A stretch of DNA of 13,094 bases, taken from assembly GCA_046583315.1 (NCBI GenBank), contig JAYGCN010000233.1, positions 1 to 13,094 on the forward strand. Reading direction: 5' to 3'. The translations under genes were made by a program, and so were the position numbers. Of this stretch, positions 147 to 12,792 are shown one piece after another. The DNA is from Candidatus Hydrogenedentota bacterium. Lineage in GTDB: Bacteria > Hydrogenedentota > Hydrogenedentia > Hydrogenedentales > GCA-2746185. How positions within the stretch are numbered: the stretch's first letter is position 1; each line of letters starts with the position of its first letter. Under the pieces are notes generated by a model. The model did not search any database. It was given only the letters and a program-made list of their open reading frames with translations, and was not told the origin of the DNA.

Positions 147-728
147 CTACTTGGCGGGGAGCGTGGCGGAGAAGGTGATGGGGATATCTTCGGTGATGGA
201 CATGGGATTGAGCGTTTTGGGTTTGCCTATCTTGAAGTCTAATCGATTGAAGGTGAATTTGCCCTCGACTTTCACCGGATCCCTTTGCACTACGCGAAAC
301 TCCAATTTCGGAAAGGTCTTTTTTACACCGTGCAGATTGAAATCCAGTTTGGCCGTGTAGGTGTCACCAGATTTCGTCTTTTTGACCTCGTATATTTTCA
401 ACGTGGCCGCCGGGTACTTCTCCACATCGAAGAAGTCCGCTGTGCGCAGGTGATTGTCGCGTTTCGCTATTTTCGTGTCGATGCTGGCGACATCGACGGA
501 GATAACGATCACGGCTTCAGCGGGGTTTTCCAAATCGAAGGTCGATTCGGTGATGGACCATTTTTTGAATGTGCCGTTCGCCTTCGCAACAGTATTCTTG
601 GCGAAAAACGTGATGCTTCCCGGTGGCGGGGTTTCTTTTTTGGTTTCAGCGAGCTCGGCTAACGGGGCAAGCCCGAACAGTCCCAGGCTTAGCAGGATGA
701 TTGAGAGTAAGATGGGTTTTTTGAACAT
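147..728 (-). CDS. YceI family (lipid/polyisoprenoid-binding) secreted protein
   Basis: 193-aa ORF with a hydrophobic N-terminal signal (MFKKPILLSIILLSLGLFGLA). YceI motifs 'DVASIDT..AKRDNHLRTADFFDVEKYP', 'LHGVKK' and 'FNRLDFKIG'. RBS AAGGAG at 738-743. Confidence 0.93.
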   Translation of the reverse strand: MFKKPILLSIILLSLGLFGLAPLAELAETKKETPPPGSITFFAKNTVAKANGTFKKWSITESTFDLENPAEAVIVISVDVASIDTKIAKRDNHLRTADFFDVEKYPAATLKIYEVKKTKSGDTYTAKLDFNLHGVKKTFPKLEFRVVQRDPVKVEGKFTFNRLDFKIGKPKTLNPMSITEDIPITFSATLPAK

Positions 729-794
729 TTCAGCGGTCTCCTTGAATGTTTGCCGAAACGACGGATGAATAAATTAACACGAATTCGACCGCAA

Positions 795-2174
795 TTATTC
801 AAACGGTGTCGCGAGAAGAGAAATTTTGACGGGGTCTTCTTCGATGGTGGCGAGGTGGAGGAAGAAACTGCCCATTCCTGCTGCACCTTGCATGTATCCT
901 GTTTGCGTTTGGGTGAATTCGGGTTTGATGCGCATTTCGGCGGTGGTCCAGCTGAGTTTTCCGTCTTCTGAGTTGGCCTGAGAGAGGACGTAGCGCGCGA
1001 TTCTTCGACCGAGTTCCAGGTATTTTTCGTCTCCGGTCGCGCTGTAAAGATAGAGGGCGTAATCGCCCAGGCCGGAATCGCCGCAGCATTGACTGACGTT
1101 GTTCCAGAGTCCCTCGCTACGTTTTTCGGGCGCGCCGGTGGATTCCATGCCACGCAGGTTTGCATCAATCCATTCCATCCATTGGCCGTCTCCCGTAATC
1201 TGACTGAGCAGGTACATGAGTCGACCTGTGCCCGCGGGGCCGTGGCATCGTCCCAGATAATAGAGATCGGCCGGTTCGGGACGTTCGTGGTGTGTGACGA
1301 GAATGCCGTCGCCTTTCTTCACTGCGCGGGATTGTACATAGCGTGTGGCCAACAGAGCAGCATTCAGATATTTTTCGTCATTGGTTTCGACGTAGAGGTC
1401 GGCGAAAAAGTATCCGATTCCGGCGGGTCCATGCGCAAAGTTTGGCATGATATACGGTGCGGGCAGATTGTCCATCATGGGCCAGCGCAGTCCGCCTTTT
1501 GTTTTTTCAGCGACCTCCAACAAGCGATCGGCGATCTTGACAGCCCATGCAACCGCGTCGTCGTCCAATCCTTCGCGATGCGCATAGAGCAGCATAACGC
1601 CGACCCCTGCAGAGCCGATGGTCAAGTCATACATTTCGCCTATGTTGGTATTCGCGGCATTGTAGGCTGCGAAGGGATTCTGTTCGATCCATCCGACACC
1701 TGAGCCGAGTTCTTTCGCGTTCGCTTTAATGCGCGCGAGAGCTTTCAATGCACCACTGCGGAATGCGGGCTCCTTCGTGCGTTTGTATAACTCGTTCAGC
1801 ACGAAAACATCAGCCGTTAATCCCGAGTGCAAACTTATCGTGCCGTCCACATTCTTCGCCGACGCAGCAACGATTTCGTGGCCCGCGCGGGTTGCGGTGT
1901 CGAGAAAACGTTGTTCCCCGGTTGCGGCGTAGAGTTCCAGATAATAGAGTGCGATACCACCGCCGCCCTGGTAAAAAGTATGGTTTGACTCGTCGCCTGA
2001 CTCCAGACTTTTTCGCCAGGTCGCTTCATCGAGTTTCTGTGAGGCGATAAACTGCTCGGCATCGAGCGCATGTTTCAGGAACGCTTTGTCAGCGGCCTCC
2101 TGAGCCGTTGTGAACTGGCAATGAACGGTCGAAATGAGAAATGTGGCTAGCAGGAATATTCGATTCTTTTTCAT
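795..2174 (-). CDS. Lanthionine synthetase C-like (LanC-like) protein with predicted Sec signal peptide
   Basis: 459 aa with repeated GxxG helix-start motifs of the alpha/alpha barrel (YQGGGGIA, HSGLTA, IGSAGVG, FAHGPAGIG, RCHGPAG, QCCGDSG, YMQGAAG). N-terminus MKKNRIFLLATFLISTVHCQFTTA|QE looks like a signal peptide. TAAGGT upstream at 2183-2188. Confidence 0.88.
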   Translation of the reverse strand: MKKNRIFLLATFLISTVHCQFTTAQEAADKAFLKHALDAEQFIASQKLDEATWRKSLESGDESNHTFYQGGGGIALYYLELYAATGEQRFLDTATRAGHEIVAASAKNVDGTISLHSGLTADVFVLNELYKRTKEPAFRSGALKALARIKANAKELGSGVGWIEQNPFAAYNAANTNIGEMYDLTIGSAGVGVMLLYAHREGLDDDAVAWAVKIADRLLEVAEKTKGGLRWPMMDNLPAPYIMPNFAHGPAGIGYFFADLYVETNDEKYLNAALLATRYVQSRAVKKGDGILVTHHERPEPADLYYLGRCHGPAGTGRLMYLLSQITGDGQWMEWIDANLRGMESTGAPEKRSEGLWNNVSQCCGDSGLGDYALYLYSATGDEKYLELGRRIARYVLSQANSEDGKLSWTTAEMRIKPEFTQTQTGYMQGAAGMGSFFLHLATIEEDPVKISLLATPFE

Positions 2175-2207
2175 GGATCTAAACCTTATTTTGGGGAATG
2201 CTGTACG

Positions 2208-3497
2208 TCAGCTGAGCAAATCGTTCAGGTGGTCGTTCATGAATCGGCGTTCGGGATCGAGTTGCTCCCGGATTTTCAGAAATGATTCCCATTGCGGGTA
2301 TAACTCGGAGAGTTCTTTGGCTTTGAGTGTGTGCATTTTGCCCCAGTGGGGTCGCCCGTGGTGATTGCGAAAGATGGCTTCGACATCGTTGAAGAAGGCT
2401 TCGTGGGGCAATTCGGCGAGCTGGTGGGCGGAAATGGTTACGGTGTCGCGACCGTTCGCCATGCTGAGGTAAGCATCTTCCTTGCCAACGGTACGGTATT
2501 CCAATGGCATAACAACGTCGGAGTGTTTTCCCATCATGAGTTCGCGCAACTCGAGCAGACAGTCCGGGCCGTTTTCTTCGGGCACCGAGTATTCGATTTC
2601 GTTGAAGCGGCGTGAGCGAACGGTGGGGAAAATCACGTCGCTGTGTCCGATGCGTTCGTTTTCGTTGTCGGGCATCTCGTCGGGCTCGGCTTTGGTGATG
2701 TTCAGGGTCTTGTTCATGCATCCGTCGCGTTGGGACACCCAGAAAAACTCGAAATGACGATTTTCGTCTATTGATTGTTGGAGTGACGAGAAGGTTTCGT
2801 CGAAGGTGCTGATCCAGCCTTTTTCGTGCAGTCGATAGGTTTTCAGGAACTGCATGCGCACGTGGGTAACGATGCCGAGTGCTCCAAGAGATACTTGTGC
2901 CCCGCGAAAAATTTCGGGGCTGTCGTCCATGGAGCAATCGAGAATGTCTCCGGACGCGGTGAGCATACGTAATCCGATAACCTGACTGGAAATGCTCCGG
3001 AGTCCCTTGCCGGTTCCGTGGGTTGCAGTGGCGATGGCTCCCGCGATGGCCTGGCGATCGATGTCGCTGATGTTCTCCATGGCCATGCCGGCTTCTCGAA
3101 GGGGTACGTGCATGTGGCGCATCTTGGTGCCGCCGAGAATGGTGGCTTGCAGCGCGTCCTTGTCGATGTCGACGACGCCTTTCATGTCCGCCATGGATAT
3201 CGTCATGCCGTCGGTGGCGCACAGCGGCGTGAATGAGTGGCCGCTACCGGCGAGGCGCACGGTCCAGTCTTCTTTGTTTGCACGATGCACGAGATCAACG
3301 AGTTGAGATTCGTTTTGTGGTCGCCCGGAGGCAGCGGGGTTGCAGGTCACGGAGCCGGACCAGTTGCGCCATTTTATGGGAGCGTCGGTTGTCTGGGCGG
3401 TCGCGGTATTTGGTGATAGGGCCGAACCCAGCGCAACGCCCGCGACTCCTTTCATAAAAGCGCGGCGATTCAACGTATATGGTGATTCTTTTTTCAT
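2208..3497 (-). CDS. FAD-linked oxidoreductase, D-arabinono-1,4-lactone oxidase (ALO/VAO) family, Tat-exported; SphC-like
   Basis: Motifs 'WRNWSG', 'AGSGHSF' (His at the covalent-FAD position), 'IAGAIATATHGTG', 'SLGALGIV', 'EIEY' and 'GRPHWGK'. Start reassigned from 3572 to ATG 3497: AAAGGA at 3504-3509, no overlap with the upstream gene, and a twin-arginine signal NRRAFMKG...ATA|Q directly after. Confidence 0.92.
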   Translation of the reverse strand: MKKESPYTLNRRAFMKGVAGVALGSALSPNTATAQTTDAPIKWRNWSGSVTCNPAASGRPQNESQLVDLVHRANKEDWTVRLAGSGHSFTPLCATDGMTISMADMKGVVDIDKDALQATILGGTKMRHMHVPLREAGMAMENISDIDRQAIAGAIATATHGTGKGLRSISSQVIGLRMLTASGDILDCSMDDSPEIFRGAQVSLGALGIVTHVRMQFLKTYRLHEKGWISTFDETFSSLQQSIDENRHFEFFWVSQRDGCMNKTLNITKAEPDEMPDNENERIGHSDVIFPTVRSRRFNEIEYSVPEENGPDCLLELRELMMGKHSDVVMPLEYRTVGKEDAYLSMANGRDTVTISAHQLAELPHEAFFNDVEAIFRNHHGRPHWGKMHTLKAKELSELYPQWESFLKIREQLDPERRFMNDHLNDLLS

Positions 3498-3507
3498 GAA
3501 CAATCCT

Positions 3508-4737
3508 TTATTGTGATTTTCCGCGCGCGGCGACAGGCCATAGTTCGGTAACTTTTCCGTCCTCGACCACATGGTATACGTCGTAAAGGTTTACGGTCGG
3601 GTCGCAGTGGGATACCACGAGGCGCGCTTTGTCTCCGAGTTCAAAGGGACGCGACGGATTTTGCAGCTGAATCATACCGTGTTCGTCGCCGCCCCAATGG
3701 TAAATCAATCCGTCGATATCGGCGAACTCCGGTTTCACATCTTCGGCCGCGAAGGATTTGTATCCTGCATCCACGGTGATTAATTCGTCGACCGGTTTAC
3801 TGATTGCGGTTACCAACACGTGCAATGACGGCTGAAAATAATCGAATACGTCGCTGTCGGCATCGCCTATGGCACGGTATTGCACGTCCATGAATGGATA
3901 GGAACCGACCTGCAGATCGGTCACTCCGCTGATGCCGGAATCGATGTCGAAGGTGCCGGTGCCGCCGCCGCTGAATATGTCGATTGGGATTCCTGCGTCC
4001 TCAATGAGTGTTCGCGTTTCCAGGGCCGCGTTCATCGTTTTGACGGATCGTTCTTTGCGTTTGTCGTGGCCGGGGATGTGCATGAGGTGTCCGGCGTAGG
4101 ATTGAAGACCCGCGAGCTTTAAGGAAGAACAGTTGTTCACGATATGTTTGGCCAATTCGAGAGCGGGTTCGCCGAGGGCGATTCCGGTGCGCCGAGTTCC
4201 GGTATCGAGATCGATGAGAACCTGCAATTGCGCACCTGTCGCCTGTGCCGTAGCATTGAAGCGATCGGCGGTGGGAATGTTGTCGATGACCATGATGATG
4301 CCGGAATGTTTTTTGGCCATGGCGACGACGGGGTCGATTTTCTCCTTCGTAACCACTGGAGAGGTGATAAGAATGTTTGAAATTCCCGCGTCGGACATGA
4401 CTTGCGCTTCACCGACTTTGGCGCAACAGATTCCGACGGCGCCGAGTTCCAGTTGACGTTTTGCGATTACGGGGCACTTGTGCGTTTTCGAATGGGGGCG
4501 CACGCCGACACCTTGCGCTTTGGAGTGGTCCGCCATTTTCTTGAGGTTGGATTCAAAGGCCGCGCGGTCGAGCAACAAGGCGGGTGTCGGTACCTCTTCG
4601 AGTGGAATGGGCTCGTCCAGTCGCACCGCGTCAGTCATGATGGCGGCCTCCGCGACTCCTGAGGGACGTATGGCCGCGCCCAAGGTTCCTGCGGTCGCAG
4701 CTTGTATAAATGAGCGTCGTGAAATTGTCCATGCCAT
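3508..4737 (-). CDS. DSD1-family / D-threonine aldolase-like PLP-dependent enzyme (fold type III), Tat signal; SphD-like
   Basis: Motifs 'PTPALLLD', PLP-lysine 'RPHSKTHK', 'RRTG', 'GLQSYAGH', 'GGGTGTF', 'QVGSYPFMD', 'DAGYKS', 'GDEHG' and 'HCDPTVN'. N-terminal SRRSFIQ...AEA twin-arginine signal. RBS AGGAG at 4744-4748. Confidence 0.92.
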   Translation of the reverse strand: MAWTISRRSFIQAATAGTLGAAIRPSGVAEAAIMTDAVRLDEPIPLEEVPTPALLLDRAAFESNLKKMADHSKAQGVGVRPHSKTHKCPVIAKRQLELGAVGICCAKVGEAQVMSDAGISNILITSPVVTKEKIDPVVAMAKKHSGIIMVIDNIPTADRFNATAQATGAQLQVLIDLDTGTRRTGIALGEPALELAKHIVNNCSSLKLAGLQSYAGHLMHIPGHDKRKERSVKTMNAALETRTLIEDAGIPIDIFSGGGTGTFDIDSGISGVTDLQVGSYPFMDVQYRAIGDADSDVFDYFQPSLHVLVTAISKPVDELITVDAGYKSFAAEDVKPEFADIDGLIYHWGGDEHGMIQLQNPSRPFELGDKARLVVSHCDPTVNLYDVYHVVEDGKVTELWPVAARGKSQ

Positions 4738-4772
4738 ATCCTTCTCCTGAAAATGTTCTCGTCTGTTTCGTT

Positions 4773-5936
4773 TTAGGTGTCAAGGGATCGCGCGATCACC
4801 TCTTTCATGACCTCGTTGGCGCCGCCGTATATTTTCTGGCCGCGGCTATCAGCATACAACTGCGCGATGGGATATTCCAACATATATCCGTAGCCGCCGT
4901 GGAGCTGAACGCATTCGTCCACGACTTCGCATTGGGTCTGAGTGCTCCACCATTTCGCCATGGACGCCGTCGGGGCATCCAGAGTTCCGTCAATCAGGCG
5001 TCCAATGCAGTCATTAAGGAATGATCGCAGGACTTCGGTCTTTGTTTTGACCTCGGCGAGCTTGAATCGGGTATTTTGCATGTCCATGAGTCGTTTCCCG
5101 AAAGCTTCGCGCTGTTTTACGTAGGCCAGCGTTTCGCGCAGGGCAAAGTCGCAGGCGGCAAGGGCGGTGAGGCTGATGGATATGCGTTCGAAGGGAAGCT
5201 GGCCCATGAGCTGAAAGAATCCATGCCCCTCGTCACCACCTAACAGATTGTCCTGAGGAACGCGCACGTCTTCGAAGAAAAGTTCGGATGTATCCTGGCC
5301 TTTCATGCCGATTTTATCGAGATTGCGTCCGCGTCGAAAGCCCTCGAGGTCGTCGGTCTCGACAATTATAATTGAAATCCCTCGCGCTCGCGCATTTCGG
5401 TCGGTTTTGCAGACAACACAGATGAGGTCGGCCTGTTGCCCATTAGTGATGAATGTTTTCGAGCCGTTCAACAAGTAGTCGTCGCCGTCTTTTACGGCGG
5501 TCGATTGAATGGCTTGGAGATCGGAGCCGGCGTTGGGTTCGGTCATGGCGATGGCCCCGACTTTTTCGCCTGCGACCAGTGTGGGTATCCAGCGTTGCTT
5601 TTGTTCTTCCGTTCCGAATACGAGAATATAGTGAATGACGTACATGTGTACGCGGATGCCGAGCGCGTAGTCTCCTGTGGCTGCGTGTTCGAGGAAAATG
5701 ACGGCATCGAAAGAGTGGTCTCCGCCGGAGCCGCCATACGATTCCGGCACGGAAGCGCCGAGCAGATCCGCAGCACCGAGTTTCGGCCAAATTTCCCTGT
5801 CAACGACTCCCTGCTTTCGCCAATCATCGAGCTTTGGGGTGACTTCGGCGGCGAAGAATTTGCGAGCGGAATCACGCAACATCACATGCTCTTCAGTCAT
5901 CCACCGGGGCATCAGTTGTGGGTTGGAGGGCTCCAT
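4773..5936 (-). CDS. Acyl-CoA dehydrogenase (long-chain/LCAD-type active site)
   Basis: Signatures 'IAMTEPNAGSDL', 'LNGSKTFITNG', 'KIGMKGQDTSELFF', 'REAFGK', 'QLHGGYGYM' and 'IYGGANE'. RBS GAAGGAG at 5944-5950. No signal peptide. Confidence 0.96.
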   Translation of the reverse strand: MEPSNPQLMPRWMTEEHVMLRDSARKFFAAEVTPKLDDWRKQGVVDREIWPKLGAADLLGASVPESYGGSGGDHSFDAVIFLEHAATGDYALGIRVHMYVIHYILVFGTEEQKQRWIPTLVAGEKVGAIAMTEPNAGSDLQAIQSTAVKDGDDYLLNGSKTFITNGQQADLICVVCKTDRNARARGISIIIVETDDLEGFRRGRNLDKIGMKGQDTSELFFEDVRVPQDNLLGGDEGHGFFQLMGQLPFERISISLTALAACDFALRETLAYVKQREAFGKRLMDMQNTRFKLAEVKTKTEVLRSFLNDCIGRLIDGTLDAPTASMAKWWSTQTQCEVVDECVQLHGGYGYMLEYPIAQLYADSRGQKIYGGANEVMKEVIARSLDT

Positions 5937-5977: not shown

Positions 5978-5986
5978 AGTATAGCA
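5978..5986 (-). promoter_or_regulatory. Putative extended -10 promoter element (TGnTATACT) for the five-gene operon
   Basis: Minus strand reads TGCTATACT about 41 nt upstream of the ATG at 5936. No recognisable -35 element. Confidence 0.55.
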
Positions 5987-6094: not shown

Positions 6095-6367
6095 ATGGAA
6101 TTGTCTATGTTACGTGGGCGTATTCTGGATACGCCGTTGGTAAGAAGCCTTCCAGAGGAAATGCGAAACAAGGTTGTAATGTTGCTTTTGTGGATCTCCA
6201 AGACGGAAGAAGTCACGCGTGAGCAGAAGCTGTTTGTTCAGGGCGATGTCGATATTGATCGGGGCTGTCTCATTCTTGAGGGCATGGTGCGCATCATCAC
6301 CGAAGGAAATGACAAGAACATGATTAATGCCCCCGATATCCTCGGCGAGGTTACAGCAGTCGAATGA
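6095..6367 (+). pseudogene. Cyclic nucleotide-binding (Crp/cNMP) domain protein, C-terminally truncated
   Basis: 90 aa with cNMP-domain strands 'KLFVQGD...GCLILEGMVRII...DILGEV'. It stops five codons after the conserved GE, and none of the three forward frames continues with an R-[ST]-A-[ST]-V-type segment. Good RBS and promoter. Confidence 0.65.
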
Positions 6368-6412: not shown

Positions 6413-7819
6413 TCAGGAAAGAATCTCGGGAATGAGATGACCGTGGACATCGGTGAGCCGTCGGTGGATGCCGTTGTGCTTGAAGGTGAGTTTTTCGTGG
6501 TCAATTCCGAGCTGGTGCAGTATTGTGGCGTGTAAATCGTAACAATAGGTAGGGTTTTCCGCCGCTTTGTATCCAAATTCATCGCTGGCACCGTAGGTGG
6601 TTCCGCCTTTGAAACCTCCGCCGGCCACCCACGAAGTGAAGGCTTCCGGATTGTGATCACGCCCGATACCTCCCTGACGACACGGCATACGCCCGAACTC
6701 GGTGGTCCAGATGACGATGGTATCATCCAACATGCCGAGTGCCTTCAGGTCTTTTAGTAAGGCGGCGGCGGGTTTGTCCATGGACGTGCCCATTTCGCCG
6801 TGGTGCGTGGGAATATCTTCGTGCGAATCCCAGTTGCGACGTGGGAACCCGTTGTCAGCTCCGCTCCATACCTGGACGAATCGTACGTCACGCTCGAGTA
6901 ACCGGCGAGCAGTGAGACAGTTTCGCCCGAAGTCACGCGTGATTTCCTCGTCGAGACCATAAAGTTTTTTAGTCGCTTCGGATTCGTTGGAAATATCCAA
7001 GGCTTCCGGCGCGGAAAGCTGCAGACGCGCAGCCAACTCGTAGGATTCAATGCGTGCATCAAGTCTGGAGTCACCCTCCCGTTGGGCGCGGTGGCTTTCG
7101 TTAAGTGTTCGTAGAACCTCGCGCGTGTCTTCCTCGTTTTGTTCCGTAGTGAAGTCGGCGTCGCGTGGGTATAGGTCATAAATAGGGTCTTCACGATCCG
7201 GGCGAATCAGCGTGCCTTGGGTGGCAGCGGGCAAGAACCCGCCGGACCAATTTGCGGGTCCGTTGGGCGCGAATCCGCGGCTATCAGGCAACACCACGAA
7301 GGTCGGCAGTTCGTCGGTCATACTGCCAAGTCCATAAGTCACCCAGGAACCCATGCTGGGAAATCCGGGTAATACGAAGCCGGAGTTCTGCATGAAGGTG
7401 GCGGGGCCGTGAATGTTGGTGGTCGCTTTCATGGAATGGATGAAGGCGATGTTATCGACGCATTCAGCGAGATGTGGTACCAACCCGCTCATCCATTTTC
7501 CACTTTCTCCGTATTGTTTCCAGTCCCAGGGACTCTTGAAGAAGGTGCCGGGATCACTCTGAAACAATTCGATTTTGTCGTCGATATCGAAAGGATCGTC
7601 GTGCCGCTTGATAAGTTCGGGTTTGTAATCAAACATATCGATGTGGCTGGCGCCGCCGGACATAAACATCTGTACGACACGCTTTGCTTTGGGAGCGTGA
7701 TCGAGTTTCGTGGCGGCAAGTAATTGACCCTCGCGTCCGAGCAGATCGGCGAGCGCGATCCCCCCGATTCCTCCACCGAGTCCCCACAAAAAATCGCGTC
7801 GCGTCATTGGTTTTTTCAT
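6413..7819 (-). CDS. DUF1501 domain-containing protein (Tat signal)
   Basis: Motifs 'PKAKRVVQMFMSGGASHIDMFDYKP', 'PSMGSWVTYGLGS', 'ARRLLERDVRFVQ', 'WDSH', 'TTEFGRMP', 'GRDHNP' and 'DLHATILHQLGIDH..LT'. Start reassigned to ATG 7819 (MKKPMTRRDFLWG), 1 nt after the upstream stop codon. Confidence 0.93.
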   Translation of the reverse strand: MKKPMTRRDFLWGLGGGIGGIALADLLGREGQLLAATKLDHAPKAKRVVQMFMSGGASHIDMFDYKPELIKRHDDPFDIDDKIELFQSDPGTFFKSPWDWKQYGESGKWMSGLVPHLAECVDNIAFIHSMKATTNIHGPATFMQNSGFVLPGFPSMGSWVTYGLGSMTDELPTFVVLPDSRGFAPNGPANWSGGFLPAATQGTLIRPDREDPIYDLYPRDADFTTEQNEEDTREVLRTLNESHRAQREGDSRLDARIESYELAARLQLSAPEALDISNESEATKKLYGLDEEITRDFGRNCLTARRLLERDVRFVQVWSGADNGFPRRNWDSHEDIPTHHGEMGTSMDKPAAALLKDLKALGMLDDTIVIWTTEFGRMPCRQGGIGRDHNPEAFTSWVAGGGFKGGTTYGASDEFGYKAAENPTYCYDLHATILHQLGIDHEKLTFKHNGIHRRLTDVHGHLIPEILS

Positions 7820-7820
7820 A

Positions 7821-10800
7821 TCAATCCACAAACACAAATTCGTTGAGGTTAAACATCAGGCGCGCGAGACTGGGCAAGCCATGTTTCTCGGTAAATTCGG
7901 ACAGTGTGCCGATCTCGTCGGGTTCTGGATAACGCCCGAGCGCGCGCGCATGTAGAGCCCGGACTCGGTCATTCAAATTCTCGTACTCAGATACCAATCG
8001 TTCTGCCGTATATACAGCCTGCGTCAAAATAAACGCATCGTTGAGCATCGCCAGGGCCTGGGGCGCAGTGAGGGTTTCATTGCGAATCGGCGTATTCATA
8101 TTCGGGTCGGGACAATCGAGTGCTTCGAACAGCGGATCGGGCACGCTGCGCACGATGAATCGATATACGGAACGCCTCCACACGTCGGGTGAATCCTTGC
8201 CGAGAAAATCATACTTGGGCGAATGGTCATGGGTGTAATTGAAGGCTTCGTAGCTGGGCCCGCCCATCGTGAGGTCGAGTTTTCCGCTGATGGCAAGAAT
8301 ACTGTCGTGCACCGATTCCGCGTCGAGTTTGCGGGTATTCATACGCCAGAGAAAACGGTTGCTGGCATCGATCCCAGCGTTTGTGTCATCAATTTGGCTT
8401 GACTGTCGATACGTCGCGCTGGCCAGAATCACACGATGAAGATCTTTTACCGATCCGGTCTTTCGGAATTCTATCGCCAGCCAGTCGAGCAGCTCGGGGT
8501 GCGTTGGTAGATTGCCCGCGCGTCCGAAGTCGTTGGGCGTATCAACGAGGCCTCTGCCGAAATGATATTGCCAGATGCGGTTGGCCATGGTGCGCCACGT
8601 AAGCGGGTTGTCGTTGTCGGTAATCCATTCCGCCAGGTGACGTCGATTTGTGGCTTCGTCGTCTTGGGCGGCCGGGAATTTGGCGGATAGTTCCGAGATG
8701 AAAGACAGAGCTGCCGGAAACACCTGGTCGCCGGGAGTTCCTTCGTTTCCGCGGGGAAGATCGAAGATGGGGCGCGAATCGCGTGACGATACGCTGTATA
8801 CTTTTTTCGGTGAAGAAAGCGCCCCTAGCTGACTGCGATATTCGGCAAGACGTGATGTCAGTTCGGCCTGTTCACGAAGCGCAGATTTTTTCGCGCGACG
8901 GCGCAGGAGTTTGTCGCTCTGTTTCCGAATATCTTCCATCTCCGATTCGACTCGTGCAATCTCATCTTCGTTTTCAGGCTTGTTGGTTTCGAGTCGCGTC
9001 CGGCTGTCGTATCCGTCCACAAGAAAACGCGTGTGCCACCGTCCAAAGTCGATGCTGCTGGATGCGCGAACGGTCTTTCCCTGAGCAACGTTCCCGTCCT
9101 CGGTCATCGCCTCAACTTCTGCTAGCGCAAAGGCGTAGTCTTTGTTGCGTTCCCATAGTTCGTAGGCGTCGATACGTATTTTCCGCACCGGCTTACCACC
9201 GAGTTGCACGACAAACGCGGAGTTACCGGGATTGGGAAAAGCTTCTTGCGCGTAGTCCGCGACAATTTCACCTTCATTGGTCTCGGGGGCATCGAATACG
9301 CGTACCGTAAAACGCCTCGGAAAACCGAAGCCAGGAGTATCCTTGAAATCGGTCGGGCGCGCGGGTATCAGTCGCAATTCGTCGAGGTCAACGGACTCAC
9401 CGAGGTCGATTTCAACCCATTGATGTTCGTCGGGTGTGTTGGCCACAACGCCGTGGTAGCCGTTGGACGGGCTATTGTCTTCTAGTTTCGACTCCAACGA
9501 TCCACGTTTCCGGCCCAGTCGCTCCAGGTCCTTCTGCAAATCGTGGTAGTTCTGCGGAAGGCTGTCCTGGATTGCGTTGTTAACTTTTTCGAGCGACGCG
9601 GAGGTCTGCGAAATTCTGTCGTTGAGCATTCTACGTTCGCTTGCTTTTTGGGGAGATTCATAGTCGCGATCGGCACGTTCAATCCCGGAAAATACTGCTT
9701 GTGTACGGTAATAGTCGACGCGTGGAATCGGATCGAATTTGTGGTTGTGACATCGTGCGCATTGAACCGTGGTGCTTTGGAAAGTGTTGAATACGTTGGT
9801 AAGGATGTCATCGCGATCAAGATTACGCACACGCTTTTTTTCGATGGTGCCCTCGCGTACTTCTTGTTGGCCAACCAAATCCCATGGGCCTGCTGCCAGA
9901 AATCCAGTCGCAATCACGCCGTCAGGTTGTTCGGGTTTCAGAGCATCGCCCGCGATTTGCTCAGCGACGAATTCGGCGTAGGGTTTATCTTCGTTGAATG
10001 CACGAATCACGTAATCGCGATATGGCCACGCATTGTCGCGTCGTTGATCTTTATCGAAGCCGTGGGTCTCGCCGTAGTGCACGATATCCAGCCAGTGCCG
10101 GGCCCAGCGTTCGCCGTATCGTGGAGATTGCAGAAGGCGATCAATCAATTCCGAGTAGGCCTTATCGCCCACCTGATCGGCTCCACCCGTTTCTTGTTGG
10201 CAGGCATTGAGGAAGTTTTCGATTTCGCGCGGCGTGGGCGGCAGACCGTGCAGGTCATAGGTGACGCGACGAATGAGTGTAAGAGGGCTCGCCGAACGGG
10301 ATGGAGACAACCCTTCCGTCTCGAGTTTTTTCAGAATAAAACGATCAAGCGGTTGATCCTCTCCGCCTGGAAGCTCAACCTCAACCAAGGGCTGCAACGA
10401 CCACCAGTCATCTTTGGCGGGTGGCGGCCCAATTAGCGGATGATCCGGGTAGTATGCGCCATCGTCTATCCATTGGCGTAGCACTTCAACTTCTTCGTCG
10501 CTCAATGATTGCTTCGGCGGCATTTTCTCGTCATAGATCAGTTCATAGAGCTTGCTTTCGTCGGGATCACCGGGAATAAGTATTACGCCGTTCTCGCTTC
10601 CCTTAAGTGCGCCCGCCCGATTTGTGAGGTCCAACTCACCTTCACGTTTTTCAGCGTGGCATTCGAGGCACCGATTCACGAGGACATCCTGAACGTGGTC
10701 ATTGAAGTACTGCATTGCGACGGCGTCAGCGCGGGGCTGTTGGGCGTACGTATCGACCAGGGATGTCATTACCAACATCGCAAAGACGAGAGAAATATAA

Positions 10801-10823
10801 TGTTTTTGGAATCGGGGTCGCAC
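7821..10823 (-). CDS. Planctomycete-type cytochrome c + DUF1549 (PSCyt2) + DUF1553 (PSD1) protein with inserted discoidin/F5-8 type C-like module
   Basis: Signal peptide. Haem motifs CLECH (10656-10670) and CARCH (9747-9761). DUF1549 motifs 'LIRRVTYDLHGLPPT', 'YGERWARHWLD' and 'AWPYRDYVIRAFNEDKPY'. DUF1553 motifs 'NPLTWRTMANRIWQYHFGRGLV', 'PTHPELLDWLA', 'RRSVY' and 'PQALAMLND'. GTG start with weak RBS, so the exact start is uncertain. Confidence 0.93.
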   Translation of the reverse strand: MRPRFQKHYISLVFAMLVMTSLVDTYAQQPRADAVAMQYFNDHVQDVLVNRCLECHAEKREGELDLTNRAGALKGSENGVILIPGDPDESKLYELIYDEKMPPKQSLSDEEVEVLRQWIDDGAYYPDHPLIGPPPAKDDWWSLQPLVEVELPGGEDQPLDRFILKKLETEGLSPSRSASPLTLIRRVTYDLHGLPPTPREIENFLNACQQETGGADQVGDKAYSELIDRLLQSPRYGERWARHWLDIVHYGETHGFDKDQRRDNAWPYRDYVIRAFNEDKPYAEFVAEQIAGDALKPEQPDGVIATGFLAAGPWDLVGQQEVREGTIEKKRVRNLDRDDILTNVFNTFQSTTVQCARCHNHKFDPIPRVDYYRTQAVFSGIERADRDYESPQKASERRMLNDRISQTSASLEKVNNAIQDSLPQNYHDLQKDLERLGRKRGSLESKLEDNSPSNGYHGVVANTPDEHQWVEIDLGESVDLDELRLIPARPTDFKDTPGFGFPRRFTVRVFDAPETNEGEIVADYAQEAFPNPGNSAFVVQLGGKPVRKIRIDAYELWERNKDYAFALAEVEAMTEDGNVAQGKTVRASSSIDFGRWHTRFLVDGYDSRTRLETNKPENEDEIARVESEMEDIRKQSDKLLRRRAKKSALREQAELTSRLAEYRSQLGALSSPKKVYSVSSRDSRPIFDLPRGNEGTPGDQVFPAALSFISELSAKFPAAQDDEATNRRHLAEWITDNDNPLTWRTMANRIWQYHFGRGLVDTPNDFGRAGNLPTHPELLDWLAIEFRKTGSVKDLHRVILASATYRQSSQIDDTNAGIDASNRFLWRMNTRKLDAESVHDSILAISGKLDLTMGGPSYEAFNYTHDHSPKYDFLGKDSPDVWRRSVYRFIVRSVPDPLFEALDCPDPNMNTPIRNETLTAPQALAMLNDAFILTQAVYTAERLVSEYENLNDRVRALHARALGRYPEPDEIGTLSEFTEKHGLPSLARLMFNLNEFVFVD

Positions 10824-10914: not shown

Positions 10915-12792
10915 CTATGGCGATAGACCTATGGTGACGGTGCCGCCGGACGCTTGCAGCCTAACATTTTGGTTGATGGAGATCGTCTCGGATGTTTGAT
11001 CGGAAACTATATTCACGATCGCAGCGTCCGCGGCCGCAGCGATCCCTTCGGTGAGGGAATTGAAGGGGTTGTCTTGCGTTCCGCACTCATCGCCTGAATG
11101 ATCGAATTCAACCCACACGGGAGAAAGGGTCTTCTGCGTGAATCGAAATGCGTATGCGTTTATACCGGTCGCTGTTCCGGGAATTTCTTCGAGATAGTGA
11201 AACAGCCATGAGTCGGCATCAGCGCGTGCGAGATTGTACGAAGTCGAACTGAGTGTAGTGTACGAATTGCTCGCATCGGTTGATAGTTCGACCTGCATCA
11301 GGGATACCTCCGCGACATTGGTAATCAACACGGCAGGCGTCTGATAACCCGTTGCTAAACGTGTGCTTCCGTTCGTATCGAACTGTATGGCTGCCGTGCC
11401 ACTGGACGCCGCGAGTTCATAATGTCCGAAGCTCGTGTTAAAGCCATAGGAGGGTATCTCGCCTCCAGTAGCGAGGGTTCCAATAAGCGCTTGTGCGTAG
11501 GGATTGCCGTAGTCGTGTGAGAAGGGCAGCGAATCACTGACACTTTTGATGGTGGGCAACTCGGTCGATGAACTGCTGCCGAGTTGAAGAAGATACTGGC
11601 GATCATGCGTAACGATTGGCCGAAGACCTGTGCTGCGCCCCCATTGCGTATACGAAATATCGGTGAAGCCCTGATCGTTGAAGGCACCGTAGTTGGCTTC
11701 GCTCCAGAAATCGTATTGGGCGAGCAGCATTCCCGCGCCTCGGGAGCGGGTCCAGTGAGCGAGCACGTAATCCGAGCCCACCGCTGCACCTCCTGGCGAA
11801 TGTATTAGGGAGAAACATCCGCCGACAAGGGAATCCCACAGCGTATCACCGTTGCTACCGCCTTGCCAACGGGATAAGGCGGGATCGGAGCATTGATTGA
11901 TGATGGTTACGTCCCCATCGGCATGAAGGGAGACGGTTTCGTTGAATATGTTTTCGCGTCGGACGAGAAAATCGACATCGGAGGCACTACCGATCGATTG
12001 ATCGACGGTGAGCTGATTCGTACCCACTCTACTTGTGACCAGGACCGGGCCGAATCCACCAGCCGTACTCTCGATGGTGTCGCCTTCGAATACTCCCAAG
12101 GCAACGAAGTCGGTGCCTCCAGTCGCGGTGATGGTGGTACCAATGAAATCGATGCCTGCGCCTCCCGAACCCGGGCCCGAGGCCACCGTCTTCTCCGATT
12201 CATTGATAGTCGTTTCAAAATCGATGTGAATTTTGCCATTTGCGTAAATCGTCCAGTACGTCACGAATGAGACTAGTTCCAGTTCGGGAAATGGATTGCC
12301 CGCAGGCCCTCTTCCATTGTTGAGAAGGGGATGACCCGACTGTTTCAGCCTCACCCGAACGGGATTGGATTCCAGCACATCAAGCTGCGCGGCGCCCGGG
12401 GAAACATTTGGTCCCATGGTGGTCATAAATTCATTTTCCACGCCGCCGCCCGCGCCCAGGTAGATGTCGTAATCGAACAATACTCCGGAACTGTAACCCG
12501 TGTTTGCCCCGCCCGTTGCGAGGTTGTCTGATTCGCCCGGGTCGTATGCGAGGTCGTACCATTGCTGTACACCCCAGTTGTATTGCTCACTGAATACCAG
12601 CTTCCAGTCCGAGGTCTCCACCGTGAAAAGCCCCAATGACATGCGCTCGTCCGTTACGGACATGGGAAGGGCTATCGAAGAGGAATCGGCGAACGCAATT
12701 CGGGGGGCGCCGGATACGGCGAGACTTAGAATTCCATACAGAAAGACATTGGTCGTGCGTATCCAGCTATTTTTGAGTGTCAGATAAAGCAC
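10915..12792 (-). CDS. Hypothetical secreted protein with a C-terminal DUF1565-like tail
   Basis: 625-aa ORF rich in Gly/Ser/Thr/Asp with a beta-strand pattern. Signal-like N-terminus ending AFA|D. The C-terminal ~65 aa read 'PVWVEFDHSGDECGTQDNPFNSLTEG...SETISINQNVRLQASGGTVTIG'. GTG start uncertain. Confidence 0.8.
   Translation of the reverse strand: MLYLTLKNSWIRTTNVFLYGILSLAVSGAPRIAFADSSSIALPMSVTDERMSLGLFTVETSDWKLVFSEQYNWGVQQWYDLAYDPGESDNLATGGANTGYSSGVLFDYDIYLGAGGGVENEFMTTMGPNVSPGAAQLDVLESNPVRVRLKQSGHPLLNNGRGPAGNPFPELELVSFVTYWTIYANGKIHIDFETTINESEKTVASGPGSGGAGIDFIGTTITATGGTDFVALGVFEGDTIESTAGGFGPVLVTSRVGTNQLTVDQSIGSASDVDFLVRRENIFNETVSLHADGDVTIINQCSDPALSRWQGGSNGDTLWDSLVGGCFSLIHSPGGAAVGSDYVLAHWTRSRGAGMLLAQYDFWSEANYGAFNDQGFTDISYTQWGRSTGLRPIVTHDRQYLLQLGSSSSTELPTIKSVSDSLPFSHDYGNPYAQALIGTLATGGEIPSYGFNTSFGHYELAASSGTAAIQFDTNGSTRLATGYQTPAVLITNVAEVSLMQVELSTDASNSYTTLSSTSYNLARADADSWLFHYLEEIPGTATGINAYAFRFTQKTLSPVWVEFDHSGDECGTQDNPFNSLTEGIAAAADAAIVNIVSDQTSETISINQNVRLQASGGTVTIGLSP

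What the first reader, a model, noticed from the sequence alone, without database searches (positions are those of the whole stretch)
147..5936. Candidate periplasmic long-chain amino-alcohol (sphingoid base) breakdown operon that includes a secreted LanC-like protein
Seen: five co-oriented genes with gaps of 35, 10, 33 and 66 nt behind one putative promoter; four of the five carry export signals. Established: in Pseudomonas aeruginosa the sphingosine-induced sphBCD operon pairs a Tat-exported flavin oxidoreductase (SphC) with a predicted PLP threonine-aldolase-like enzyme (SphD) and a cytochrome c (SphB). YceI proteins bind long hydrophobic chains, and LanC/LanCL enzymes catalyse Zn-dependent thiol Michael additions. 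Inference: the oxidase could oxidise C1 of a 2-amino-1,3-diol lipid to a beta-hydroxy-alpha-amino acid, and the aldolase could cleave this to glycine plus a long-chain (possibly 2-enal) aldehyde. YceI could carry the lipid and the acyl-CoA dehydrogenase could feed beta-oxidation. The LanC-like protein could then act on the electrophilic enal or a thioether adduct instead of a peptide. I know of no described pathway with this combination. The substrate is a hypothesis.
Basis: partly seen in the sequence, partly recalled or inferred. Interest (0 to 1): 0.8.

Follow-up and report, generated by a model that had tools for sequence, protein, structure and literature searches.

The report
Exported amino-alcohol oxidase plus aldolase pair
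Five tightly packed genes are real, but only two travel together across bacteria, a flavin oxidase and a D-threonine-aldolase-type enzyme that likely split an amino-alcohol (possibly a sphingolipid backbone) into glycine and an aldehyde outside the cytoplasm, while the secreted lantibiotic-cyclase-like gene appears to be a local neighbour and not part of that pathway.

Summary
The five co-oriented genes, the gaps and the four export signals are confirmed. The conserved unit is only the Tat D-threonine-aldolase-like enzyme plus the Tat ALO-family oxidase. They are adjacent in 2 other genomes of the class and in 16 of 151 gammaproteobacterial genomes (28 within 4 kb). The oxidase matches P. aeruginosa SphC at 16 of 16 scored active-site positions but lies outside the cytochrome-linked SphC clade and lacks its 38-residue lid. 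The aldolase is not an SphD orthologue (35 bits) and keeps the full D-threonine aldolase catalytic set. So the pair works like the proposed SphC/SphD route without being sphCD. The C1-oxidation and retro-aldol mechanism was proposed in print in 2014 and is unproven. A long-chain substrate is plausible here (LCAD-type dehydrogenase, YceI, a ceramidase elsewhere in the genome) but not shown. The LanC-like link fails its test: 0 of 82 related loci carry the aldolase, and 1 has an oxidase, on the opposite strand. The LanC-like gene belongs to a large, often exported, partnerless family with an intact zinc site. This scan noted both elements before on other DNA.

The parts
4773..5936 (-). Cytoplasmic acyl-CoA dehydrogenase, long-chain (LCAD) type; local neighbour, not conserved beside the pair
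   Evidence: Pfam; best PDB hit human LCAD 374 bits against 250 or less for butyryl/isovaleryl types; E250 in FERI and YGG motif (LCAD meaning of these motifs recalled); nearest class relatives 47-53% and on other contigs
3508..4737 (-). Tat-signal fold-type III PLP enzyme of the D-threonine aldolase/BhcC group (conserved core gene 1)
   Evidence: PDB D-threonine aldolases 204-260 bits, dehydratases 103 or less; K84, R183, Y214, H220, Q276, H377, D379 kept in 120 of 120 homologues; Tat motif in 100 of 120 homologues
2208..3497 (-). Tat-signal ALO/VAO-family flavin oxidoreductase, short form without the SphC lid segment (conserved core gene 2)
   Evidence: TIGR01679 386 bits, over cut-off 292; 42% to SphC; His87 and HWGK kept in 48 of 48; model matches galactonolactone dehydrogenase Z 51.8, rmsd 2.1, 384 aligned, and alditol oxidase Z 49.5, rmsd 2.0, 375 aligned
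795..2174 (-). Secreted stand-alone LanC-like protein with predicted Cys3 zinc site (C310, C363, C364) and H248; local neighbour
   Evidence: PF05147; motifs invariant in 32 of 32; model closest to LanCL2, E 1.3e-11, TM 0.63; not next to the pair elsewhere
147..728 (-). Secreted YceI-family lipid/isoprenoid-binding protein; local neighbour
   Evidence: PF04264; E. coli YceI E 8.8e-14; 0 of 80 LanC loci carry a hit
5978..5986 (-). Possible extended -10 element (TGnTATACT) upstream of the first gene
   Evidence: Seen by eye; not reported by the consensus scan; untested

Best explanation
The conserved core is a two-enzyme module, a flavin oxidase and a PLP/metal D-aldolase, that likely oxidises the primary alcohol of a 2-amino-1,3-diol to the acid and then cleaves it to glycine plus an aldehyde, here predicted to happen in the periplasm because both carry twin-arginine signals. 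Shown: the pairing, the motifs and the catalytic residues. Inferred: the chemistry, covalent FAD, O2 as acceptor and the substrate. Oxidising C1 of a natural (2S,3R) sphingoid base would give a D-configured beta-hydroxy amino acid, which suits a D-aldolase. In this genome the substrate may be a long-chain base (about 0.3 overall), with YceI and the LCAD-type enzyme recruited to carry and burn the lipid tail. The LanC-like gene is most likely an independent exported thiol/thioether enzyme that sits here only in this lineage.
For: Pairing: aldolase directly followed by oxidase in G033 and G109, both cut by a contig end. 16 contig lengths are shared between the two top-120 hit lists against 1.2 by chance, maximum 6. 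In 151 gammaproteobacterial genomes both occur in 76 of 101 aldolase carriers, 16 are adjacent on one strand and 28 lie within 4 kb. An ALO oxidase sits beside a fold-type III PLP enzyme in three separate subfamilies: sphCD, Tsukamurella with an AraC 34% like SphR and gcvT, and this one. Aldolase signature: His/Asp metal site plus the His193 equivalent, which PMC4401734 says dehydratases lack. Oxidase: 16 of 16 scored positions equal SphC against 7 of 16 for an alditol-oxidase-like outgroup. Alditol oxidase over-oxidises primary alcohols to acids (PMC4513209). The position aligned to the A113 oxygen gatekeeper is Gly 27, Pro 12, Ser 9 and never Ala in 48, fitting the lack of a cytochrome. Lipid context: LCAD type; a full-length neutral ceramidase in this genome and in G109, the only carrier among 54 genomes of its family.
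Against: No activity was measured, and even for SphC no product is known and sphD is dispensable. The shared active-site residues are not specific to SphC: unpaired long ALOs of the class score 13-15 of 16. The oxidase lacks the amphipathic segment that SphC has (14 against 52 residues), which may mean a less greasy substrate. 6 of 8 other class genomes with the Tat aldolase have no oxidase match (one is cut by a contig end), and 25 of 101 gammaproteobacterial carriers lack the short oxidase. There the neighbours are often an Rv0216-like hydratase and a mesaconyl-CoA-transferase-like gene, which hints at small acids. A ceramidase was found in only 5 of those 151 genomes and not in G033. Gln81 of the reference aldolase is Ala in 120 of 120. 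The reference enzyme prefers the syn diastereomer in docking, whereas a sphingoid product would be anti (my stereochemical inference). Identities of paired proteins to the query did not correlate (rho 0.22, p 0.44, n 15).
Confidence: 0.55

Rival explanations
1. All five genes form one sphingoid-base pathway, and the LanC-like enzyme adds a thiol to (or removes it from) the 2-enal released by the aldolase.
For: Tight co-orientation confirmed in a public run. Four exported products. Intact predicted zinc site, with H248 and H311 in the motif positions of LanCL1 His219 and His277 (mapping by motif). LCAD-type dehydrogenase, YceI and a ceramidase in the genome. One 3.25-Mb contig appears to hold all three of LanC, aldolase and oxidase relatives (shared length). 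24 of 28 LanC carriers have the aldolase against 77 of 123 non-carriers (p 0.025; genomes are kin and the carriers are mostly the larger ones).
Against: 0 of 80 genome loci of LanC relatives hold the aldolase or YceI, and 1 has an oxidase on the opposite strand. 0 of 2 loci of the closest signal-peptide clade hold any partner. LanC is in 0 of 132 other class genomes, including both that have the pair. None of 28 LanC genes lies at the aldolase locus. A 9,188-base contig with an about 80% similar oxidase has some 6.6 kb downstream with no LanC piece laid (the table was cut, and a LanC under 80% alike would be missed).
Confidence: 0.1
2. The pair acts on a small polar substrate (a short amino-polyol, an amino-sugar derivative or a hydroxy-amino dicarboxylate precursor), and the lipid-related neighbours are incidental.
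For: The closest solved folds are a sugar-lactone dehydrogenase and alditol oxidase. No amphipathic lid. The aldolase is nearest to D-threonine and hydroxyaspartate aldolases. Gammaproteobacterial copies have no Tat signal and often flank a hydratase and a mesaconyl-CoA-transferase-like gene, TIGR04253 585 bits, under cut-off 725. No ceramidase link there. One Tat aldolase sits beside a Gfo/Idh/MocA dehydrogenase.
Against: The oxidase differs from the alditol-oxidase-like outgroup at 9 of 16 scored positions and from SphC at none. The data do not reject a sister relation to the SphC clade (AU p 0.255). Here the operon opens with an LCAD-type gene and ends with YceI.
Confidence: 0.27
3. The PLP enzyme is a beta-eliminating dehydratase or lyase, and the oxidase supplies it or works on something else.
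For: Pfam calls the C-terminal domain D-serine dehydratase; Gln81 is replaced by Ala throughout; the aldolase often occurs without the oxidase.
Against: His-x-Asp metal site and His220 in 120 of 120, whereas the dehydratase uses His/Cys and lacks that His; scores against dehydratases are under half those against aldolases.
Confidence: 0.08

Closest known systems
Pseudomonas aeruginosa sphBCD (PA5328-PA5326, SphR regulon)
   Same: Tat-exported TIGR01679 flavoprotein next to a fold-type III PLP enzyme; 42% identity and 16 of 16 scored active-site positions shared with SphC; same proposed chemistry.
   Different: Aldolase from another subfamily (35 bits to SphD; SphD has Gln-Ser-Glu where this one has His-Cys-Asp) and itself Tat-tagged; gene order reversed; no cytochrome, SphA or SphR hit in the genome; oxidase outside the cytochrome-linked clade and 38 residues shorter.
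Low-specificity D-threonine aldolases (PDB 4V15, 7DIB) and hydroxyaspartate aldolase BhcC (6QKB)
   Same: PLP lysine, Arg, Tyr, catalytic His and His/Asp metal site all kept.
   Different: 36-40% identity to the BhcC-like and DTA-like references used; BhcC model 289 bits against cut-off 690; Gln81 is Ala; Tat signal; fixed oxidase partner.
Alditol oxidase (2VFR) and aldonolactone oxidoreductases (GULO, GalDH)
   Same: Fold (Z 48-52, rmsd 2.0-2.4, 375-391 aligned), flavinylation His, Glu-x-Arg and HWxK motifs.
   Different: About 26% identity; different residues at 9 of 16 scored positions relative to an alditol-oxidase-like sequence; below the sugar-lactone oxidase cut-off, 200 against 397.
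LanCL1/LanCL2 and the cyclase domain of class IV synthetase CuvL (8CAR)
   Same: Alpha/alpha toroid, top structural hits; HG, CHG and CCG motifs align to CuvL.
   Different: 16-19% identity; third zinc ligand predicted Cys, not His as in LanCL1; signal peptide; no dehydratase or kinase domain and no second LanC-domain gene in the genome.

Membership tests
sphBCD-type sphingosine module | Oxidase inside the SphC clade | tested here: inconclusive
   Outside the four-member cytochrome-linked clade (SH-aLRT 96-100), but a sister relation is not rejected (AU p 0.255); quick trees, sampling biased to top hits
sphBCD-type sphingosine module | SphD-type PLP enzyme | tested here: not met
   35 bits, 32% over 75 residues only; separate branch, different metal-site residues
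sphBCD-type sphingosine module | Cytochrome c SphB beside the oxidase | tested here: not met
   No cytochrome gene in the operon; no tblastn hit of SphB in the genome at E 1e-4 (genome 96.7% complete)
sphBCD-type sphingosine module | SphR regulator and induction by sphingosine | not testable with these tools
   No SphR hit at E 1e-4; induction needs an experiment
D-threonine aldolase group (fold type III) | Lys59, Arg157, Tyr187, His193, Gln249, His347 and Asp349 equivalents | tested here: met
   K84, R183, Y214, H220, Q276, H377, D379; 120 of 120 homologues (numbering read from the alignment)
D-threonine aldolase group (fold type III) | Gln81 contact to the PLP hydroxyl | tested here: not met
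   Ala106 in the query and 120 of 120 homologues
BhcC hydroxyaspartate aldolase | NCBIfam cut-off and bhcABCD context | tested here: not met
   289 bits against 690; no bhc genes among the neighbours
TIGR01679 bacterial FAD-linked oxidoreductase | Model cut-off, flavinylation His, HWxK | tested here: met
   386 bits against 292; H87, H384, K387 in 48 of 48
Lanthipeptide cyclase (LanC/LanM/LanL pathway) | Zinc ligands and catalytic His | tested here: met
   C310 130, C363 130, C364 129 and H248 120 of 131 aligned relatives; zinc binding itself predicted
Lanthipeptide cyclase (LanC/LanM/LanL pathway) | Fused or adjacent dehydratase and precursor peptide | tested here: not met
   459-aa single domain, flanking gaps 33 and 66 nt, neighbours of other families; the only PF05147 hit in the genome
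Lanthipeptide cyclase (LanC/LanM/LanL pathway) | LanB elsewhere in the genome | tested here: inconclusive
   No PF04738 or PF14028 hit, but no control genome rang either
LanCL glutathione-adding enzymes | Glutathione-binding residues listed in PMC9934072 | not tested
   Residues read; no residue-level superposition was available

The most novel reading that the evidence does not exclude
This is a complete periplasmic, cytochrome-free route for sphingoid bases built from a non-orthologous D-aldolase, and the exported LanC-like enzyme is the first of its large partnerless family caught beside its substrate source: it would trap or release the electrophilic 2-enal by zinc-dependent thia-Michael chemistry on a lipid, not a peptide.
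Probability: 0.1. Interest if true: 0.8.

Novelty: new variant of a known kind. Interest (0 to 1): 0.42.

Why it matters
How bacteria break down free sphingoid bases and other amino-diols is open: the SphC/SphD route is still a proposal. This pair offers a cleaner test case, since its aldolase has a textbook catalytic site and its oxidase likely needs no cytochrome, and relatives occur in 76 of 151 sampled genomes of one gammaproteobacterial family. It would also give a physiological role to a D-threonine aldolase clade, which PMC4401734 calls largely unknown for these enzymes. The exported stand-alone LanC-like family (537 clusters at E 1e-30 or better) has no description in the two literature searches made for it (listings only), but this locus does not reveal its function.

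Tried and rejected
Orthology to sphCD: rejected for the aldolase, unresolved for the oxidase. LanC as a conserved partner: rejected by five surveys. Conserved neighbours of the cytoplasmic LanC relatives: none recurs in more than 9 of 80 loci. Lanthipeptide biosynthesis: no partner found. Ceramidase as a substrate marker: suggestive in the class (2 of 3 pair carriers against 8 of 130 others), absent in the gammaproteobacterial family (5 of 151), where long SphC-type oxidases are also common, so it is a poor marker either way. Expression: no RNA holder listed, which is no evidence. Viral contigs: no relative. The metagenome scan returned only 2 loci, and their records could not be searched further, so the aldolase and oxidase positions on the 3.25-Mb contig are unknown. 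Cluster look-up gave no useful names. The protein atlas returned only unnamed LanC-family clusters. The careful tree did not finish; quick trees were used (one search left out 13 of 48 rows for speed). My recollection that alditol oxidase accepts a 2-amino alcohol was not confirmed by the passages read, and a recalled aldolase-like neighbour of M. tuberculosis Rv1771 was not confirmed; neither is used. No complex prediction was run. No supplements were read; those of PMC11893366 may list further SphC homologues.
Full report
Observation. The region holds five minus-strand genes with gaps of 35, 10, 33 and 66 nt: acyl-CoA dehydrogenase, a fold-type III PLP enzyme, an ALO-family flavoprotein, a LanC-like protein and YceI. 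Two have twin-arginine motifs and two have hydrophobic Sec-type N-termini, judged by eye and a crude script. Contigs from public run X2 bridge all four junctions with 11 or fewer differing letters each. The holders listed are marine, seawater and vent metagenomes. A promoter is supported only by an extended -10-like motif, and co-transcription is untested.

Relation to sphBCD. The real locus was fetched from a P. aeruginosa record (cytochrome c5, oxidase, PLP enzyme, then sphA and sphR beside argB), matching the arrangement in PMC3900636 (passages). The window's oxidase is 42% identical to SphC. Its PLP enzyme aligns to SphD over only 75 residues at 35 bits. The genome has no tblastn hit to SphB, SphA, SphR or SphD. 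A true sphBCD-like operon exists in strain HTCC2143, whose oxidase is 48% to SphC and 34% to the window's. In three quick trees the cytochrome-linked oxidases form a strong clade that excludes the query, but a sister relation is not rejected (AU p 0.255). The query lacks a segment that SphC has (14 against 52 residues) and that contains an amphipathic stretch. At 16 polar positions, chosen from the conserved columns of the query clade, SphC is identical at all, an alditol-oxidase-like outgroup at 7, and unpaired long oxidases at 13-15. The site is therefore SphC-like but not SphC-specific. [quoted passage not shown] PMC11893366 (passages and section 20) found sphD dispensable, identified no product and warned that orthology is hard to judge.

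The aldolase. Its best solved relatives are D-threonine aldolases and BhcC (204-260 bits), far above dehydratases. All catalytic residues described in PMC4401734 (passages) are kept in 120 of 120 homologues except Gln81, which is Ala. That paper notes that the dehydratase uses His/Cys and lacks His193, so the retro-aldol reading is preferred. PMC4761611 (passages) says natural D-enzymes are low-specificity at the beta carbon. My own stereochemical inference is that C1 oxidation of a (2S,3R) sphingoid base yields a D-allo-type beta-hydroxy amino acid, the right alpha-configuration for this enzyme.

What is conserved. The aldolase is directly followed by the oxidase in 2 of 8 other class genomes that have this aldolase clade. 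The top-120 hit lists of the two proteins share 16 contig lengths against 1.2 expected (indirect evidence). In 151 genomes sampled from one gammaproteobacterial family, 101 have the aldolase, 81 a short oxidase and 76 both; 16 are adjacent on one strand and 28 lie within 4 kb (genomes are kin, so the p-value overstates). The copies inspected there have no Tat signal and often enclose an Rv0216-like hydratase and a mesaconyl-CoA-transferase-like gene. A third pairing of an ALO oxidase with a different fold-type III enzyme, beside an SphR-like AraC gene and gcvT, occurs in Tsukamurella. Repeated pairing with different PLP subfamilies suggests shared chemistry (inference).

What is not conserved. 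LanC relatives in 80 genome loci have no aldolase or YceI nearby, one oxidase on the opposite strand and only generic dehydrogenases in 9. The 2 loci of the closest signal-peptide clade have none of the partners. The gene is missing from 132 other class genomes. In the gammaproteobacterial sample it occurs in 28 of 151, never at the aldolase locus. A close sister contig shows no LanC piece downstream of the oxidase (with the limits stated above). In G033 the YceI and dehydrogenase matches are on other contigs, and in G033 and G109 other genes precede the aldolase.

The LanC-like protein. The model is a confident alpha/alpha toroid closest to LanCL2 and CuvL. The family has 537 clusters at E 1e-30 or better; of the best 150, 21 have a Tat motif and 68 more a hydrophobic N-terminus, and the three cysteines and H248 are nearly invariant. 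By the mechanism in PMC9934072 (passages) it is predicted to activate a thiol at zinc. Nothing here ties it to an enal.

Substrate. For a lipid: the LCAD-type dehydrogenase, YceI and a full-length neutral ceramidase in this genome and in G109. Against: the missing lid, the small-acid neighbours elsewhere and the lack of a ceramidase link in the larger sample. I put the amino-diol-to-glycine chemistry at about 0.55 and a long-chain base as the substrate here at about 0.3.

Novelty and verdict. Searches for sphC/sphD and for D-threonine aldolase with sphingoid terms (listings) showed no description of this aldolase-oxidase clade, and two searches showed none of exported stand-alone LanC proteins; the library omits most subscription papers. 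Earlier notes of this scan report both elements in other genomes. Verdict: a real operon whose core is a new variant of a proposed, unproven pathway, with an interesting but unlinked LanC-like neighbour. Interest 0.42.

Noticed in passing
window 6095-6367 (+): Divergent 90-aa ORF with a weak cyclic-nucleotide-binding match (E 0.02); looks like a short or truncated sensor domain facing away from the operon.
   Followed up: partly
window 6413-10823 (-): DUF1501 plus PSCyt1/PSCyt2/PSD1 gene pair; similar genes flank the aldolase in G033, G069 and G079 and the LanC gene in L091, probably because they are abundant in these genomes.
   Followed up: no
window 10915-12792 (-): 625-aa protein with a hydrophobic N-terminus and no Pfam match even at E 1.
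   Followed up: no
G000:C155:1665-1940: Second YceI, 90% identical over 91 residues and 84% at DNA level, cut by the contig end and followed by an ORF that looks like a sterol desaturase/fatty-acid hydroxylase (by eye, recalled).
   Followed up: partly
G000:C129:6201-8195: Full-length neutral ceramidase with a signal-like N-terminus (511 bits); such genes were found in 10 of 133 class genomes.
   Followed up: partly
L152:536-6693 (Tsukamurella tyrosinosolvens): AraC 34% like SphR, alanine-racemase-like enzyme, ALO oxidase, permease and gcvT in a row: a possible actinobacterial analogue of sphRCD.
   Followed up: partly
L209, L211-L213, L165: Conserved string in a gammaproteobacterial family: hydroxyglutarate-oxidase-like gene, cation efflux, aldolase, Rv0216-like hydratase, mesaconyl-CoA-transferase-like gene, short oxidase, exbB; pathway unexplained.
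   Followed up: partly
L086 (NZ_CP070468.1): Record labelled a P. aeruginosa plasmid carries spoT, rpoZ, gmk, argB and sphBCD, so it is probably a chromosomal fragment.
   Followed up: no
L037: Record titled Klebsiella pneumoniae MAG shares neighbours with two environmental gammaproteobacterial loci (L041, L043); the label may be wrong.
   Followed up: no
P0330, P0338, P0352; P0418, P0481, P0505: Fusions: three oxidase relatives carry a PF07110 domain; LanC relatives are fused to a hydrazine-synthase-alpha-like domain or CARDB.
   Followed up: no
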